Positions 3,496 through 27,013 of a stretch of DNA of 64,000 nucleotides are shown here, piece after piece. Source of the stretch: the human T2T-CHM13v2.0 reference genome, Homo sapiens; NCBI RefSeq assembly GCF_009914755.1, contig NC_060934.1, one strand, 5' to 3'. Positions within the stretch are counted from its first letter, which is position 1, and each line of letters starts with the position of its first letter. A program made the position numbers and the translations under genes. Below the pieces are notes generated by a model. It did not search any database and was not told the DNA's origin. It saw nothing but the letters and a program-made list of their open reading frames with translations.

Positions 3496-3753
<258 letters not shown>

Positions 3754-4659
3754 TAGGGAATAAAATGGCTTCTTGAGAATGCTGATATGCACAGCAGAAG
3801 GAAGAAAGGAAAACCAATCCAAGGAACGGCTTGTATGTTCCTGGAGCAGAGGGCTTCATGCTCACAGGTGCACAAAGTGGAAACGGTTTTGGTTTTTGGT
3901 TTTTCCTTTTAGCTTTTAATACTTTTAAAATTATTTTTCTTGAAACCGGGTCTTCCTCTGTTGCCCAGGCTGGAGTGCAGTGGTGTGATTGCAGCTCACT
4001 GTAGCCTCAAACTCCTGGGCATAAGTGATCCTTCTGCCTCAGCCTCCGAGTAGCTGAGACTACAGGCATGCATCATCACGCCTGGCTAATTTTTTTTAGT
4101 TTTATTTTTGAAGAGGCCGGTCTCACTATGTTGGTCAGGGTGGTCTCAAACTCCTGGGCTCAAGCGATCCTCCCAAAGTGCTCGGATTACAGGCATGAGC
4201 CACCACACCCAGCCTAGCTTTTACTATATTTTATCTGATAATCCTTTTATGGAAAAAAGAAGGGCAGACTCTTTTACAGTTTGAAGAAGCTCCATATTCC
4301 ATCAGGAGCCATCTTGAGCAATACCTGGGTTTCTAAGAGCTCCCCAGAGCCAGTTCTCCAGCTCACCTTGCTTTCTAATCTAAGGTTGCCCTCACCTTGG
4401 ACAAGAAGCACGAGTCCCTCAGAGTAATTCAGAGTATCCAAACTCAAAAGTCTATGTACATGGAGGCCTTGCTAGACCTTAATGGTGACATTTTCATCAA
4501 TATCCGGTTTTCTGCCATGAGTCCCTATCCCTCTTTTTCTTAACATATTCAAGCCAGAATATTTTTTCAGCCATTCTGTAACTGCACAGTTTCTTCCAAG
4601 TCTCTACTTTGTCTCCCATTAACTAGGATCCAATATATTTATGTATTTATTTATTTTAA

Positions 4660-5208
<549 letters not shown>

Positions 5209-5664
5209 TGATTAAACACACCTCCATGCTTCCTCCAGGAATCTGTATTTTGCATATCTGTTATTTCATCTGGGGCTGTTTTCTTATTATTAGCTGCAAA
5301 AGTTCCAAAGAGGAAGAAGAAAAAAGATATATCAGAGAGGTGGAAAAGAGTTGATCAACATGGTCAACTGAATTCAAGACAGAGAAGGAACATGTGATGA
5401 GCTTACCTGAAAGGGTGATTTGTAGAGTAAGAGCTCTTAGGGGGACAAAGTAATGAACCCTGATTTTGATATGTTTCATATGGGAAGGTATAAGGAAGTT
5501 AAGGTTCTGTTTAGGAATCAAGATTAACCGTGGGGCAAAAGGACAAAAAATAGATTAAGGTAATAATGGAGAACAGCATAGAAATGAAATTCCCAATGCC
5601 CAAATGGCCACCAGTTTTTTCACGTTTCCCTAGAAGAACCAAGATAGTTCCTAAAGATGTCTGC

Positions 5665-14021: not shown

Positions 14022-14913
<892 letters not shown>

Positions 14914-17923: not shown

Positions 17924-19194
17924 TGATAAAATAAAAATTATTAATTTATTAAATTTTGATCCTTAAGAGCACCTTTTAAAAATTCTGTGGCATGAAATGG
18001 GAAGTAGGAAGTACTTATAAAGTACTTCTGCTATATGTCAAAGAACAGTGGTTGTCTTGAGGGAAAACATTAGTGTGATCATTATAGTTGTGAGCTGAAT
18101 TAACCCCTTTATTCATGTAATATCCTTTTTGTTTGAAAGAATGACTGACAAACTGGTTGTTCAGACTTCGGTATTTTGCAGCTTCAAGAACATTAATAAA
18201 GTAAAATTGTTACTTCAAAGTAACAACTTGCAATATTTGTTCCAATGATAAAATTTGAGCTTTTGGCAGTGGCTCATGCCTATAATCCCAGCACTTAGGG
18301 AGGCTGAGGCGGGAGGAGCACTTGAGCTCAGGAGTTTGAGACCAGCCTGGGCAGTCTCTCCAAAAAGAAAAAAAAAATTAGCCAGGCATGGTGGCATGCA
18401 CCAGCTGAGGTGGAAGGAGCACTTGAGCCTGGGAGGCCAAGGCTGCAGTGAGCCATGATTGTACCACTGCACTCCAGCCCAGGCAACAGAGCAAGATCTT
18501 GTCAAAAAAAAGAAAAAAGAAAAGAAAAAATAGCTTTCAAGCAAAACTCAGAATTGTGGTGATCTTGCATGTGGTACTAAGCTTGACAGCTTCCTAATAA
18601 TTAAAAACTCTTCTGATGCTATCAGTGGTGATGTTCAAAAATGTCAATTTTTAAATATTATAGAATAAAATGAGCCAACATTTTAGAAGATTTGCATAAC
18701 TCAGTGAACCAATACTTTTCAAATGACCAAAACATAATGTTACAAAATCATGCATGGATAAAAGGTGCATTGAAAATGCAAATGAGGCCAGGTGTGGTGG
18801 CTCATGCCTCTAATCCCAGCATTTTGGGAGGCAGAGGCTGGAGGATCACTTGAGGCCAGGCATTTGAGACCAGCCTGGCCAACATAGCAAGATCCTATCT
18901 CTAAAAATAATAAGAGTAAGAGAATTAGCCAGGCATGGTGGCATGCGCGTGAAGTCTTAGCTACTTGGGAGGCTACGGTGGGAGGATGGCTTGAGCTTAG
19001 GAGTTTGAGGTTACAGGAAGCTATGATTGTGCCACTGCCCTCCAGCCTGGGTGATGGAGTAAGACCATGTTTCAAAAACAAAACAAAAAAAAAAGAAATG
19101 CAAGTTAGACCAATGAAGTATAATGTAATGAAATACAAAAAATTCATTGCTATGGTTTCAAATTCCCAGTGCAATTAACCTTTAAGATACTACG

Positions 19195-19580
19195 TGTCAG
19201 GCCTCTGAGCCCAAACTAAGCCATCATATCCCCTGTGACCTGCATGTATACATACAGATGGCCTGAAGCAACTGAAGATCCACAAAAGAAGTGAAAATAG
19301 CCTTAACTGATGACATTCCACCATTGAGATTTGTTCCTGCCCCACCCTAACTGATACGATATATTCTCCCCCGCCCTTAAGAAGGTACTTTGTGATATTC
19401 TCCCTGCCCTTGAGAATGTACTTTGTACGCCTATCCCAAACCTATAAGAACTAATGATAATCCCACCACCCTTTGTTGACTCCTTTTTAGACTCAGCCCG
19501 CCTGCACCCAGGTGAAATATACAGCCTTGTTGCTCACACAAAGCCTGTTTGGTGGTTTCTTCACACGGATGCATGTGACA
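19195..19580 (+). mobile_element. HERV-H 5' LTR (LTR7 family)
   Basis: TG...CA ends, TATA-like cctataag at 19441, two copies of the U3 repeat, and the poly(A) hexamer altered to AATATA (19516-19521). Confidence 0.95.
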
Positions 19581-20156
19581 TTTGGTGCTGAAGACCCAGG
19601 ACAGGAGGACTCCTTTGGGAGACCAGTGCCCTGTTGTCGCCCTCACTCCGTGAGGAGATCCACCTATGATCTCAGGTCCTCAGACCAACCAGCCCAAGGA
19701 ACATCTTGCCAATTTCAAATCGGGTAAGTGGTCTTTTCACTCTTCTCCAGCCTTTCTTGCTACCCTTCAATCTTCCTCTCTCACTACCCTTCAATCTCCC
19801 TGTCCTTCCAATTCCCGTTCTTTTTCCTCTCTAGTAGAGATAAGGAGACACATTTTATCTGTGGACCCAAAACTCCAGCGTCAGTCATGGACTCGGGAAG
19901 ACAGTCTTCCCTTGGTGTTTAATCACTGTGGGGACGCCTGCCTGATTATTCACCCACACTCCATTGGTGTCTGATCACCACGGGGATGCCTGCCTTGGTC
20001 ATTCACCCACATTCCCTTGGTGACAAGTCAATTGCGGGGACACCTGCTTTGGCTGCTCACCCACATTGCAGCCCAGGGCTGCTCAATGCCCCCCGCTGCC
20101 CCACCCGCCTTCTCCGTGCCTCTACCCTCTCTTTTCTCGGGTTTACCTCCTTCACT

Positions 20157-22480
20157 ATGGGCAACCTTCCACCCTCCATTCCTCCTTCTTCTCCCTTAGC
20201 CTGTGTTCTCAAAAACTTAAAACCTCTTCAACTCACACCTGACCTAAAACCTAAGTGTCTTATTTTCTTCTGCAACACCGCTTGGCCCCAATACAAACTC
20301 GACAATGATTCCAAATAGCCAGAAAACGGCACTTTCGAGTTCTCCATCCTACAAGTTCTAGATAATTCTTGTCATAAAATGGGCAAATGGTCTGAGGTGC
20401 CTGACGTCCAGGCATTCTTTTACACATTGGTCCCTCCCTAGTCTCTGCTCCCAATGTGACTCATCCCAAATCTTTCTTCTTTCTCTCCTTTCTGTTCCTT
20501 CGGTCTCCACCCCAAGTTCCGAGTCCTCTGAATCCTTCTTTTCTATGGACTCATCTGACCTCCCCCCTTCTCCCCAGGCTGCTCCTCGCCAGGCTGAGCC
20601 AGGTCCCAATTCTCACTTAGCCTCTGCTCCCCCACCCTATAATCCTTTTATCACCTCCCCTCCTCACACCTGGTCCAGCTTACAGTTTCGTTCCTCGACT
20701 AGCTCTCCCCGATCTGCCCAACAATTTCCTGTTAAAGAGATGGCTGACTATCCTGACTTCATCAGAGCAGGCTGGTGCCTGGCCTTCCTGGAATGAGTGG
20801 GTGTTCTGACAGGCCCCCAGTTTGTCCCATCTGCACCGCCAAGAGGTCTCCGGGTGGCCAGAGGAGCAAAGTTGCCTTCCAAGTGCCTGTTGGTGCCTGG
20901 GAGAACACAGCAGGAGTGTCGTGCGGCCCACAGCGCAGCGCATGGTGATTCTAGGCGCTGAACAACTCCCCTTGACCCTTGGGCCTGCATCTGACTCCCG
21001 GCTGCAGAATCAGAAGCTGAGTCCAGGCAACCGCTCGGCCACTCCCGGTCACTCCTCTCTGGACACCCAGTTACTAAAGTCAGCAAAGAAGATGCGGTAA
21101 TCACCGCCTGATCTCCACATGGTGAACACAACACTCTCACTAACACCTCCTTGACCAGTCAGTCTTCAGCACTGGGGGTGGACAGGCAGGTTTTCTGTGT
21201 TTACCAGAATCGCACAGGCTAAGCACAAACATGGAACCAGAGTTCCAGGTGAGGAAACCTCACTCGCAGAAGCCCAGGCTGCACCCCACCAGGTGATGCA
21301 GTGCGCCTAGGCTGTGGGTGCTAGGAGCCAAGTGCTAGGGACTCGTCATGAGTGGGAATCCCCACGTTCCTGTCACTGCTGTCAAACAGAAGGTAAACAG
21401 TCTTACGAATGTAATTCCTTAGGAAGACTTGTACAAACTTTTATTAGGATATCTATTTATTTAATACTGAACTTTGGCCTACTTTGTGATAAGACTATAA
21501 ACAAATTGAGGAAATCACTATTTCTCACTTCTGTATTTCTCAAAAAATAATTTTGTTACAGAGTTTAATATACTGTGTACTACTGATCTTCTATTGTGAA
21601 AGCAAAGCATTTCATCAAAACAAAGTATTTTAAATTATGAGTGAAAATTGTGTATGTTAATTTTGCAGCTGTAATATTAATCAAACTTTGTGTAATTCTA
21701 ATCACAAAATGATGTGCCTTAAATGCCCCTCCAGCTGTGGGTTGGCAGTGTCCAGACAGGGACCCTGAAATCCTGAATGACTGCTAGACCAATTCTATTA
21801 AAAACATTTCAAGGCAAAAAAAAAAAAAAAAGAGGTGGCTGGAGCTGAAGGCGTAGTCAAGGTTAATGCTCCTTTTTCTTCATCTGACCTCTCCCAATCA
21901 GTTAGCGTTTAGGCTGTTTTTCATCAAATATAAAAACCCAGCCCAGTTCATGGCCCATTTGGCAACAACCCTTAGATGCTTTACCGCCCTAGACCCAGAG
22001 GGGCCAGAAGGCCGTCTTATTCTCAATATGCATTTTATTACCCAACCCGCTCCGGACATTAGAAAAAGCTCCAAAAATTAGATTCCAGCCCTCAAACCCC
22101 ACAACAGGACTTAATTAACCTCACCTTCAAGGTGTACAGTAATAGAGTAGAGGCAACATATTTCTGAGTTGCAATTACTTGCCTCCACTGTGAGAGAAAC
22201 CCCAGCCACATCTCCAGCACACAAGAACTTCAAAACACCTGAATCGCAGCGGCCAGGTGTTCCTCCAGGACCGCCTCCCCCAGGGTCTTTCTTCAAGTGC
22301 TGGAAATCTGGTCACTGGGCCAAGGAATGCCTGCAGCCTGGGATTCCTCCTGAGCCATGTCCCATCTGTGCCAGACCCTACTGGAAATCAGACTGTCCAA
22401 CTCACCCAGGAGCCACTCCCAGAGCTGCTGGAACTCTGGCCCAAGACTCTCTGACTCCTTCCCAGATGTTCTCGGCTTAG
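20157..22480 (+). pseudogene. HERV-H gag remnant (matrix N-terminus, degenerate NC zinc knuckles), interrupted by a retrocopy
   Basis: ATG 20157: MGNLPPSIPPSSPLACVLKNLKPL...FFCNTAWPQYKL then stop. ORF 22169-22480 contains [13 protein letters not shown] and [13 protein letters not shown]. Confidence 0.9.
20747..21828 (+). pseudogene. 5'-truncated processed retrocopy (3' end of a cellular poly(A)+ RNA) inserted into HERV-H gag
   Basis: Non-retroviral 1.08 kb segment with an AU-rich end, ATTAAA 21797-21802, poly(A) 21816-21831 and a 13-bp TSD aaagagatggctg (20734-20746) / aaagaggtggctg (21829-21841) at a TT|AAAG L1-endonuclease-type site. Confidence 0.92.
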
Positions 22481-22539
22481 CGGCTGAAAACTGATGCTGC
22501 CCAATCGCCTCAGAAGCCTCTTGGACCATCACAGATGCT

Positions 22540-25712
<3,173 letters not shown>

Positions 25713-25745
25713 CTCTAATCCTTCTTTAACAAACAACTGCTGGCT

Positions 25746-26130
25746 TTGCATTTCTCTTTCCTCCAAAATCACCAAGGCCTCGACTTACTCACTGCTAAAA
25801 AAAGAGGACCCTGTATATTTTTAAACGAAGAGTGTTGTTTTTACCTAAATCAATCTGGCCTGGTATATGACAACATAAAAAAACTCAAGGATAGACCCCA
25901 AAAATTCGCCAACCAAGCAAATAATTATGCTGAACCCCCTTGGGCACTCCCTAATTGGATGTCCTGGGTCCTTCCAATTCTTAGTCCTTTAATACCTATT
26001 TTTCTCTTTCTCTTATTCGGACCTTGTGTCTTCCTTCTGTTTAGTTTCTCAATTCATACAAAACTGCATCCAGGCCATCAACAATCATTCTATACGACAA
26101 ATACTCCTTCTAACAAGCCCACAATATCAC
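25746..26130 (+). pseudogene. HERV-H env transmembrane-subunit remnant
   Basis: LQNHQGLDLLTAKKRGPCIFLNEECCFYLNQSG (immunosuppressive-domain-like motif plus CX6CC), then hydrophobic WVLPILSPLIPIFLFLLFGPC. SU is largely deleted. Confidence 0.88.
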
Positions 26131-26321
26131 CCCTTATCCCCAAATCTTTCTTCAGTTTAATCTCTCCTACTCTAGGTTCCCATGCCGCCCCTAATCCCAC
26201 TCAAAGCAGCCCCGAGAAACATCGCCCATTATCTCTCCATACCACCCCCAAAAATTTTCGCTGCCTCAACACTTCACCACTATTTTGTTTTGTTTTTCAT
26301 ACTAATATAAGAAGATAGGAG

Positions 26322-26676
26322 TGTCAGGCCTCTGAGTCCAAGCTAAGCCATCAAATCCCCTGTGACCTGCACGTGTACATCCAGATGACCTGAAGCAACT
26401 GAAGATCCACAAAAGAAGTGAAAGTAGCCTTAACTGATGACATTCCACCATTGTGATTTGTTCCTGCCCCACGCTAACTGATACCATATATTCTTCCCCC
26501 GCCCTTGAGAATGTACTTTGTACACCTATCCCAAACCTATAAGAACTAATGATAATCCTACCACCCTTTGCTGACTCTCTTTTTGGACTCAGCCCGCCTG
26601 CACCCAGGTGAAATAAACAGCCCTGTTGCTCACACAAAGCCTGTTTGGTGGTCTCTTCACAAGGACGTGCGTGACA
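26322..26676 (+). mobile_element. HERV-H 3' LTR (LTR7 family) with intact AATAAA
   Basis: TGTCAGGCC...GTGACA, AATAAA 26612-26617, single copy of the U3 repeat. Confidence 0.95.
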
Positions 26677-26726
26677 CTACACTTGTTGAGTTTTAGTGTA
26701 GTATCAAAGAAGAATATCCACAATTA

Positions 26727-27013
<287 letters not shown>

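What the first reader, a model, noticed from the sequence alone, without database searches (positions are those of the whole stretch)
20734..21841. L1-mediated retrocopy of an unrelated RNA 3' end inserted inside HERV-H gag
Seen: 1.08 kb of non-viral sequence, GC-rich then AU-rich (e.g. tatttatttaa ~21454), with ATTAAA, poly(A) and a 13-bp TSD (one mismatch) at a TT|AAAG site; removing it restores contiguous HERV-H text. It has no credible ORF, so the parent is a 3' UTR or lncRNA end. Inference: the host transcript would share ~1 kb with a gene elsewhere, allowing shared miRNA/RBP sites and cross-mapping of probes or siRNAs. I have an unverified recollection that OLMALINC shares homology with the X-linked FIRRE locus; treat that only as a candidate parent.
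Basis: partly seen in the sequence, partly recalled or inferred. Interest (0 to 1): 0.7.

Follow-up and report, generated by a model that had tools for sequence, protein, structure and literature searches.

The report
SLC9A3 3'UTR retrocopy inside HERV-H
A 1.07-kb piece copied by LINE-1 machinery from the tail end of a chromosome 5 transcript, almost certainly the 3' untranslated region of the sodium/hydrogen exchanger gene SLC9A3, sits inside an old retrovirus in an intron of the lncRNA OLMALINC; it is a real but ordinary genomic fossil.

Summary
Window 20747-21816 is non-viral sequence. It ends in ATTAAA, then 14 nt, then a 16-A run. It is flanked by a 13-bp target-site duplication (12 of 13 identical) at a CTTT|AA nick site.

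The genome holds only one other copy, at chr5:465319-466376 on the minus strand (963 of 1052 aligned bases identical). That copy has no A-tail; a U/GU-rich stretch follows the same CA. It lies on the coding strand, 3,993 nt downstream of the stop codon of the NHE3 gene (SLC9A3). The insert is therefore a 5'-truncated LINE-1-mediated retrocopy of the distal quarter of that 3' UTR, not of FIRRE.

In 35 of 38 other HERV-H copies scored, the two flanks abut exactly, with a single copy of the 13-mer. None carries the insert, so it arrived after integration and was not transduced.

Its divergence (K2P 0.091) is about the same as that between the provirus LTRs (0.075), so it is old, probably from an early catarrhine.

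The insert lies in the intron of NR_026762.1 and of OLMALINC-003, so mature OLMALINC does not carry it. No function is indicated.

The parts
19195..19580 (+). 5' LTR of the host HERV-H provirus. It starts TGTCAGGCC and ends GTGACA. RefSeq OLMALINC exon 2 starts inside it at 19491.
   Evidence: Mills 2015 (PMC4302521, passages read) names LTR7B and HERVH-int at this locus.
20362..20746 (+). HERV-H gag-region frame upstream of the insert. It contains PPPY and runs on into the insert, where it stops at 20796.
   Evidence: It has no Pfam hit. As part of query 1-497 it matches 38 other HERV-H loci at 82-91% identity.
20734..20746 (+). 5' copy of the target-site duplication, AAAGAGATGGCTG. The A at position 7 differs from the other copy and from 4 of 4 other HERV-H copies read.
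20747..21816 (+). Body of the retrocopy. It is colinear with chr5:466376-465319 (minus strand), the distal ~1.06 kb of the inferred SLC9A3 3' UTR. The first 4 nt (20747-20750) are ambiguous.
   Evidence: 963 of 1052 aligned bases identical, 6 indels, K2P 0.091.
21797..21802 (+). ATTAAA poly(A) signal carried over from the parent, 14 nt before the CA cleavage site.
   Evidence: The same hexamer sits at L003 1333-1338 on the minus strand.
21816..21831 (+). Run of 16 A. The first A may be templated and the last three may belong to the TSD, so the untemplated tail is 12-15 nt.
   Evidence: At this point the parent continues TTTTGGGTGCAAACTTTGTTT instead.
21829..21841 (+). 3' copy of the target-site duplication, AAAGAGGTGGCTG.
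21857..22078 (+). Capsid-like (Gag_p30) remnant of HERV-H gag, downstream of the insert. The frame that continues from the TSD has three stops within 110 codons.
   Evidence: PF02093, E 1.1e-5, 25.5 bits, below the 27.4-bit cut-off. for the stops.
22292..22330 (+). CCHC zinc-knuckle remnant (nucleocapsid).
   Evidence: PF00098, E 0.003, 18 bits, below the 20.8-bit cut-off.
22495..23043 (+). Retroviral aspartyl protease remnant. With the two parts above it fixes the order gag, insert, capsid, nucleocapsid, protease.
   Evidence: PF00077, 31.9 bits, above the 20.7-bit cut-off.
26322..26676 (+). 3' LTR of the provirus. RefSeq exon 3 (26315-26632) begins 7 nt upstream of it and ends about 20 nt after the LTR's AATAAA.
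   Evidence: 329 of 354 aligned bases identical to the 5' LTR, K2P 0.075.

Best explanation
A transcript from the minus strand of chr5p15.33 was polyadenylated at the ATTAAA site at chr5:465319 (T2T coordinates). It was most likely the long 3'-UTR form of SLC9A3 (NHE3) mRNA.

LINE-1 machinery captured this RNA in the germline of an early catarrhine primate. The L1 endonuclease nicked the bottom strand of a resident HERV-H provirus at 5'-CTCTTT|AACAGG-3', in gag just upstream of the capsid region. The T-rich end primed on the poly(A) tail. Reverse transcription stopped after about 1.07 kb (5' truncation). Second-strand cleavage 13 bp away produced the TSD.

The result is a dead, non-coding, sense-oriented copy of the last quarter of that 3' UTR. 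The provirus later supplied exons 2 and 3 of OLMALINC from its two LTRs. The whole proviral interior, insert included, is spliced out as intron 2.

What is shown:
- the anatomy of the insert;
- the unique parent locus;
- the direction of copying;
- post-integration timing.

What is inferred:
- that the parent RNA was SLC9A3 mRNA rather than another RNA from the same strand;
- the age;
- the lack of function.
For: Anatomy and parent:
- Poly(A), ATTAAA, a 13-bp TSD and the nick site were read directly.
- A genome-wide search with the insert gave 2 of 2 candidates: the window itself and chr5:465320-466376(-) at 90% identity.
- Homology to chr5 stops exactly at ...TTCAAGGCA. There the copy has A16, and the parent has a U/GU-rich downstream stretch and no A-tail. 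Upstream of 20747 the chr5 sequence does not match HERV-H. Copying therefore ran from chr5 to chr10, from a minus-strand RNA.

Gene identity:
- Five Na_H_Exchanger exon matches lie in order on the chr5 minus strand at 476806-485881.
- One of these exons is 95 of 96 residues identical to PDB 7x2u, 'Sodium/hydrogen exchanger 3'.
- A 90-aa frame ending ...PESTHM* stops at L003 5312. STHM as the NHE3 C-terminus is my recollection.
- The cleavage site lies 3,993 nt downstream of that stop on the same strand.
- Only one other canonical hexamer lies between them, at L003 2790.
- Older NHE3 retrocopies at chr10:50.87 Mb and chr22:21.06 Mb carry the 3' UTR to about 1.9 kb past the stop. The UTR is therefore long.

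Insertion after integration:
- 35 of 38 other HERV-H loci have the exact empty site.
- 4 of 4 copies read base by base show the empty site.

Age:
- Insert versus parent: K2P 0.091, non-CpG JC 0.063.
- LTR versus LTR: K2P 0.075, non-CpG JC 0.052.
- Mills 2015 (PMC4302521, passages) finds the LTR-derived exons in rhesus but not in marmoset.

Decay and intronic position:
- 17 of 33 parent CpGs are TG/CA in the copy, against 8 of 19 the other way.
- Intronic position: hub gene table.
Against: - No splice junction is covered, so 'processed' cannot be shown by intron loss.
- Nothing here bridges the roughly 1.0 kb between the last UTR base seen in the older retrocopies (L003 about 3389) and the start of the copied segment (L003 2376). 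No transcript annotation for chr5 was available. That the RefSeq SLC9A3 model ends at this site is my recollection only.
- A PDB sequence search with the C-terminal 90-aa frame found nothing, so the last exon is assigned by position, strand and the recalled STHM ending.
- The insert-parent divergence is nominally larger than the LTR-LTR divergence, although the insert must be the younger. The two estimates overlap: 25 differences in 354 sites for the LTRs gives about +/-0.027.
- The genome search scores only the best candidates and can miss strongly diverged copies.
Confidence: 0.8

Rival explanations
1. The mechanism is the same, but the parent RNA was not SLC9A3 mRNA. It was an independent or read-through minus-strand transcript, such as an unannotated lncRNA or a downstream-of-gene transcript, that uses the same poly(A) site.
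For: The copy covers only the last 1.06 kb. The stretch from L003 3389 to 2376 is not linked to the coding exons by any result here. A canonical ATTAAA at L003 2790 on the minus strand could end most SLC9A3 mRNAs upstream of the copied segment.
Against: The segment is on the same strand and only 4 kb from the NHE3 stop codon. Only one intervening canonical hexamer was found. As I recall it, current RefSeq extends SLC9A3 to about this site, but I could not check that.
Confidence: 0.12
2. The L1-mediated insertion happened in a progenitor HERV-H provirus. The present locus is a daughter copy that inherited it through HERV-H's own replication, so the insert predates this integration.
For: The insert-parent divergence (K2P 0.091) is not smaller than the LTR-LTR divergence (0.075).
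Against: The insert occurs nowhere else in the genome (2 of 2 candidates). None of the 38 other HERV-H loci scored has it. A sense-oriented ATTAAA plus A-tract in gag would tend to end genomic RNA early. The two divergence estimates overlap statistically.
Confidence: 0.03
3. The segment moved at the DNA level, by segmental duplication, gene conversion or a repair patch, and no RNA was involved.
For: No intron loss can be shown.
Against: The copy ends exactly at the parent's cleavage site and continues with 16 A that the parent lacks. It is flanked by a 13-bp duplication of target sequence at an L1-type nick site.
Confidence: 0.01
4. The insert is an exapted functional part of the OLMALINC/HERV-H transcription unit. 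It might act as an intronic poly(A) site that truncates transcripts, or as 1 kb of shared 3'-UTR sequence that binds the same miRNAs or RBPs as SLC9A3. This reading can coexist with the mechanism above.
For: The insert is in sense orientation and keeps an intact ATTAAA. The distal 456 nt are more similar to the parent than the proximal part is: 95.3% against 88.8%, and non-CpG differences of 3.9% against 7.9%.
Against: - The parent's downstream U/GU-rich element was not copied.
- Both characterised isoforms splice the insert out.
- The higher similarity of the distal part is equally explained by constraint on the parent alone.
- CpG loss is about twice as frequent in the copy.
- There was no Rfam family match in 19000-27000.
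Confidence: 0.06

Closest known systems
LINE-1-mediated processed pseudogenes and 5'-truncated retrocopies made by target-primed reverse transcription acting in trans on cellular mRNAs (general knowledge, recalled)
   Same: It has a poly(A) tail at the parent's cleavage site, a 13-bp TSD, a TTT|AA-type nick site and 5' truncation. There is a single parent locus with no tail and no TSD.
   Different: It contains only 3'-UTR sequence: no coding part and no exon junction. Protein-based pseudogene finders therefore cannot see it, and intron loss cannot be shown.
Older NHE3 (SLC9A3) retrocopies at chr10:50.87/50.99 Mb and chr22:21.06 Mb. I recall the names SLC9A3P1-P4; they come from no call here.
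   Same: They have the same parent gene.
   Different: Those copies carry coding sequence plus the proximal 3' UTR at 69-82% identity and lack the distal segment. The copy studied here is younger (91.5% identity), carries only the distal segment, and lies at chr10:101.27 Mb.
Alu insertion in the HERV-H copy at chr1:94.418 Mb
   Same: It is another L1-driven insertion whose TSD starts at the homologous TT|AAAA position of gag.
   Different: Its cargo is an Alu rather than an mRNA end, and it is an independent event at a different locus.
Retroviral transduction of host sequence (capture into the viral genome)
   Same: Host-derived sequence sits inside a provirus.
   Different: A transduced sequence would have no internal TSD and would be shared by sibling proviruses. 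Here a TSD of viral sequence flanks the insert, and 0 of 38 other copies carry it.

Membership tests
L1-mediated retrocopy (processed pseudogene class) | A 3' poly(A) tract that starts at the parent's polyadenylation site and is absent from the parent locus. | tested here: met
   A16 at 21816-31 follows ATTAAA, 14 nt and CA. At the same point the parent continues TTTTGGGTG....
L1-mediated retrocopy (processed pseudogene class) | A target-site duplication of about 7-20 bp flanks the insert, and the target is single-copy at empty sites. | tested here: met
   The 13-bp TSD is 12 of 13 identical. 35 of 38 paralogous HERV-H loci have the exact empty site, as do 4 of 4 read base by base.
L1-mediated retrocopy (processed pseudogene class) | An L1 endonuclease-type nick site (consensus bottom strand 5'-TTTT|AA-3', recalled). 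| tested here: met
   The bottom strand reads 5'-CTCTTT|AACAGG-3', which matches 5 of the 6 consensus positions.
L1-mediated retrocopy (processed pseudogene class) | Loss of the parent's introns. | tested here: inconclusive
   The copy is colinear with 1.06 kb of genomic chr5 sequence. It lies within what would be one terminal exon, so no junction is sampled.
SLC9A3 (NHE3) 3' UTR as the parent | Same strand as the NHE3 coding exons and downstream of them. | tested here: met
   PF00999 exon matches lie on the chr5 minus strand at 476806-485881. One exon is 95 of 96 identical to PDB 7x2u NHE3. The terminal frame stops at L003 5312, and the parent segment lies at L003 2376-1319 on the same strand.
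SLC9A3 (NHE3) 3' UTR as the parent | An mRNA that runs continuously from the stop codon to the distal poly(A) site. | not testable with these tools
   No transcript annotation or cDNA for chr5 was available. Older retrocopies bridge only the first ~1.9 kb. The RefSeq end of the gene is recalled, not checked.
HERV-H provirus (host element) | Paired LTRs and an internal gag, protease order, with many genomic paralogues. | tested here: met
   The LTRs at 19195-19580 and 26322-26676 are 92.9% identical. Gag_p30 and CCHC matches fall below their cut-offs and RVP is above its cut-off, all in the expected order. The flanks gave 1130 first-look candidates. Mills 2015 names LTR7B and HERVH-int here.
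Retroviral transduction | The insert is shared by sibling proviruses and has no internal TSD. | tested here: not met
   0 of 38 other HERV-H loci carry it, it is unique in the genome apart from the parent, and a TSD is present.
   One search found 2 places only, on chr10 and chr5, and none on C23.

The most novel reading that the evidence does not exclude
The sense-oriented insert is not inert. Its intact ATTAAA and A-tract might act as an intronic poly(A) site for OLMALINC or LTR-driven HERV-H transcripts. Unspliced RNAs would then end in about 1 kb of SLC9A3-type 3' UTR.

If the long EXOC3 3'-UTR isoform exists, that sequence would also be antisense to the EXOC3 mRNA tail. This would link a primate-specific lncRNA locus to two chr5 genes through shared or complementary RNA sequence.
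Probability: 0.05. Interest if true: 0.4.

Novelty: new member of a known kind. Interest (0 to 1): 0.12.

Why it matters
The value is mainly practical.
- The insert is a UTR-only retrocopy that protein-based pseudogene annotation cannot detect.
- It explains 1.07 kb of apparently unique sequence inside a HERV-H.
- It gives a dated marker for the history of the OLMALINC locus: the event came after the provirus and probably before the ape/Old World monkey split.
- It flags a place where oligo-dT internal priming on the A16 run could create false 3' ends.
- It also flags probes or reads for the distal SLC9A3 3' UTR that could cross-match. There are 8 exact runs of 30-48 nt.

It does not change what is known about L1 retrotransposition, HERV-H or OLMALINC function.

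Tried and rejected
- Repeat finder with a 7-nt seed. It did not report the TSD, which is split 6+6 by the mismatch. The TSD was confirmed by direct reading instead.
- PDB sequence search with the 90-aa terminal frame of the chr5 gene: 0 hits. I then used a transmembrane exon, which identified NHE3.
- FIRRE or chrX as the parent: no match.
- Coding potential of the insert and the parent, on both strands: 0 of 4 ORFs hit Pfam.
- Structured-RNA families: 0 Rfam matches at gathering score in 19000-27000.
- Using older NHE3 retrocopies to prove that the 3' UTR is continuous to the distal site. They reach only about 1.9 kb past the stop, and no clear tail was seen. The chr12 locus gave no match to this UTR.

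Literature searches:
- 'SLC9A3P1': 0 papers.
- 'OLMALINC' + 'SLC9A3': 2 papers. From their titles and abstract openings both are diabetes methylation papers; I did not open them.
- 'SLC9A3' + 'processed pseudogene': 7 papers. I opened one, and it only lists SLC9A3 among parents of polymorphic retrocopies.
- 'NM_004174' + 'UTR': 2 papers, 1 listed, unrelated by its title.
- 'HERVH' + 'retrocopy': 3 papers, none about this locus judging by title and abstract opening.
- One search was rejected for term syntax.

None of these searches turned up a description of this insert.
Full report
**The sequence**

Reading window 20400-22200 shows HERV-H-like text up to ...CCTGTTAAAGAGATGGCTG (20746). Then come 1,070 bases of different character, ending in ...CAATTCTATTAAAAACATTTCAAGGCA. 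Sixteen A follow (21816-21831), and HERV-H-like text resumes with GAGGTGGCTGGAGCTGAAGG.

The 13-mer AAAGAGATGGCTG (20734-20746) recurs as AAAGAGGTGGCTG (21829-21841), with one mismatch. The repeat finder with a 7-nt seed did not report this pair, because the mismatch splits it 6+6.

The insert is 57.3% GC in 20747-21359 and 33.3% GC in 21360-21815.

It has no convincing ORF:
- The longest ATG ORFs wholly inside it on the + strand are 51-52 aa.
- An 83-aa gag-frame ORF (20545-20796) runs about 50 nt into it.
- On the - strand the longest are 80-87 aa.
- 0 of 4 stop-to-stop frames from the copy and the parent hit Pfam.
- No Rfam family reaches its gathering score in 19000-27000.

**Is the flanking text one interrupted HERV-H?**

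I searched the window's own genome with 20250-22340. Of 1130 first-look candidates the tool scored 40: the window, one chr5 locus and 38 HERV-H loci.

In every one of the 38, the left flank (query 1-497) and the right flank (query 1580-2091) both match. The two matches overlap by the 13-mer.
- In 35 of 38 the geometry is exactly that of an empty site with a single 13-mer.
- One is off by 1 bp and one has a 23-bp deletion.
- One has 317 extra bases, which are an Alu.

Four of four copies read base by base show ...CTTAAAGAGGTGGCTGGAGCT... uninterrupted. They carry G at the position where the two TSD copies differ, so the 5' TSD copy is the one that changed.

Downstream of the insert lie:
- a Gag_p30 remnant (25.5 bits, below the 27.4-bit cut-off);
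- a CCHC knuckle (18 bits, below the 20.8-bit cut-off);
- a retroviral protease (31.9 bits, above its cut-off).

Upstream is a frame that contains PPPY. The insert therefore sits in gag, just before the capsid-like part. The frame that continues from the TSD has three stops in 110 codons.

**Where the insert came from**

A whole-genome search with 20747-21815 gave two candidates, and both were scored. They are the window itself and chr5:465320-466376 on the minus strand (90% identity, query 5-1069).

The pairwise alignment shows that homology ends at the same ...ATTAAAAACATTTCAAGGCA. After it, the chr10 copy has the A-run, and chr5 continues TTTTGGGTGCAAACTTTGTTT, a U/GU-rich stretch typical of sequence downstream of a cleavage site. 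Upstream of the copy's 5' end, chr5 continues with unrelated unique sequence.

So chr5 is the source, the RNA came from its minus strand, and the copy is 5'-truncated.

The bottom-strand nick site, 5'-CTCTTT|AACAGG-3', fits the L1 endonuclease preference (consensus recalled). An independent Alu in the chr1:94.418 Mb HERV-H copy has a TSD that starts at the homologous TT|AAAA. This supports the site being a good L1 target.

**Which gene**

Pfam Na_H_Exchanger matches lie in exon order on the chr5 minus strand at 485881-476806 (5 of the 35 genome-wide matches). One of these exons is 95 of 96 residues identical to PDB 7x2u, 'Sodium/hydrogen exchanger 3'. NHE1 chains score far lower.

A 90-aa frame ending ...PESTHM* stops at L003 5312, which is chr5:469312. 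STHM as the NHE3 C-terminus is my recollection. A PDB search with this frame found nothing.

The cleavage site at chr5:465319 lies 3,993 nt downstream of that stop on the same strand. Only one other canonical hexamer lies in between, at L003 2790. The copy therefore corresponds to the last ~1,058-1,062 nt of a ~4-kb SLC9A3 3' UTR.

Older NHE3 retrocopies at chr10:50.87 Mb and chr22:21.06 Mb carry UTR sequence up to about 1.9 kb past the stop. This shows the UTR is long, but it does not bridge the last kilobase before the copied segment. That gap, and the lack of chr5 transcript annotation here, is why I keep 12% on an independent same-strand RNA as the parent.

**Age**

| Comparison | Identical / aligned | K2P | Non-CpG JC |
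|---|---|---|---|
| Copy vs parent | 963 / 1052 (68 transitions, 21 transversions, 6 indels) | 0.091 | 0.063 |
| 5' LTR (19195-19580) vs 3' LTR (26322-26676) | 329 / 354 | 0.075 | 0.052 |

With 1.0-2.2e-9 substitutions per site per year these give 21-46 My for the copy and 17-37 My for the LTRs. The LTR estimate rests on 25 differences, so the two overlap.

Mills et al. 2015 (PMC4302521, passages read) report homology to exons 2 and 3 in rhesus but not in marmoset. Both exons are LTR-derived. The insertion therefore followed provirus integration closely, in an early catarrhine.

CpG loss runs about two to one against the copy: 17 of 33 parent CpGs are TG/CA in the copy, against 8 of 19 the other way. 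The distal AU-rich 446 aligned sites are 95.3% identical, against 88.8% for the proximal 606. Constraint on the parent alone is enough to explain this.

**Consequence for OLMALINC**

RefSeq exon 2 (19491-19723) begins at an acceptor inside the 5' LTR and ends at CGG|gtaagt. Exon 3 (26315-26632) begins 7 nt before the 3' LTR and ends about 20 nt after the LTR's AATAAA. The insert is therefore in intron 2.

The primers published for OLMALINC-003 map to 12099 and 26466 and give a 1.1-kb product. That isoform also skips the provirus interior.

The mature, characterised OLMALINC RNAs thus do not share sequence with SLC9A3. Only pre-RNA or unannotated isoforms could. Cross-matching is limited: the longest exact runs are 48, 47 and 45 nt, eight runs are 30 nt or longer, and none reaches 50.

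**Verdict**

This is a genuine, cleanly delimited, old, 5'-truncated L1-mediated retrocopy of the distal SLC9A3 3' UTR, nested in HERV-H gag. It is mechanistically textbook and shows no sign of function.

My literature searches found no description of it. These cover open-access full text only, and retrogene browser tracks could not be consulted.

Noticed in passing
L012 (chr1:94418601-94419300, minus strand): Another HERV-H copy carries an Alu whose TSD (about 18 bp, AAAAAGGTGGCTGGAGCT-like) starts at the homologous TT|AAAA position of gag. This is an independent L1-driven hit at the same nick site.
   Followed up: partly
L003 1672-1693 (+ strand; chr5:465672-465693) and L011 2975-3163, 3527-3532: EXOC3 (Sec6 exons on the chr5 + strand) has its last coding frame ending at chr5:462163, with an ATTAAA about 370 nt later. 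The next + strand hexamers (ATTAAA, AATAAA) lie inside the segment that was retrocopied. A long EXOC3 3'-UTR isoform would therefore overlap the SLC9A3 3' UTR tail-to-tail, and the chr10 copy would be antisense to it. No transcript data were available to check this.
   Followed up: partly
window 21450-21460: The ARE-like TATTTATTTAA is specific to the copy. The parent lacks 4 bp (TATT) here and has a single ATTTA.
   Followed up: yes
window 19491, 19723, 26315, 26632: OLMALINC exons 2 and 3 are built from the provirus. The exon 2 acceptor lies inside the 5' LTR, and its donor lies at CGG|gtaagt after the primer-binding-site region. The exon 3 acceptor lies 7 nt before the 3' LTR, and polyadenylation occurs at the LTR's own AATAAA.
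   Followed up: partly
window 19190-19194 and 26677-26681: The provirus itself is flanked by CTACG and CTACA, a probable 5-bp integration TSD with one mismatch.
   Followed up: no
chr10:50875812-50876781, chr10:50999754-50999960, chr22:21061636-21062760, chr12:98428778-98429551: These are intron-less Na_H_Exchanger matches with internal stops. The chr10:50.87 Mb and chr22 loci match the SLC9A3 last exon or 3' UTR at 69-82% identity, so they are older NHE3 retrocopies. The chr12 locus did not match this UTR and may derive from another NHE gene.
   Followed up: partly
L011 ~3600-4340 (chr5:462.6-463.3 kb) and L003 ~4850-5300 (chr5:468.85-469.3 kb): Two tandem-repeat blocks show up as periodic ORFs. 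One has a period of about 46 bp and lies downstream of the EXOC3 stop. The other is GC-rich, has a period of about 100 bp, and lies at the start of the SLC9A3 3' UTR.
   Followed up: no
window 14137-14606: A tandem array with a period of about 10 bp (31 or more overlapping copies of a 172-nt reference) lies in OLMALINC intron 1.
   Followed up: no
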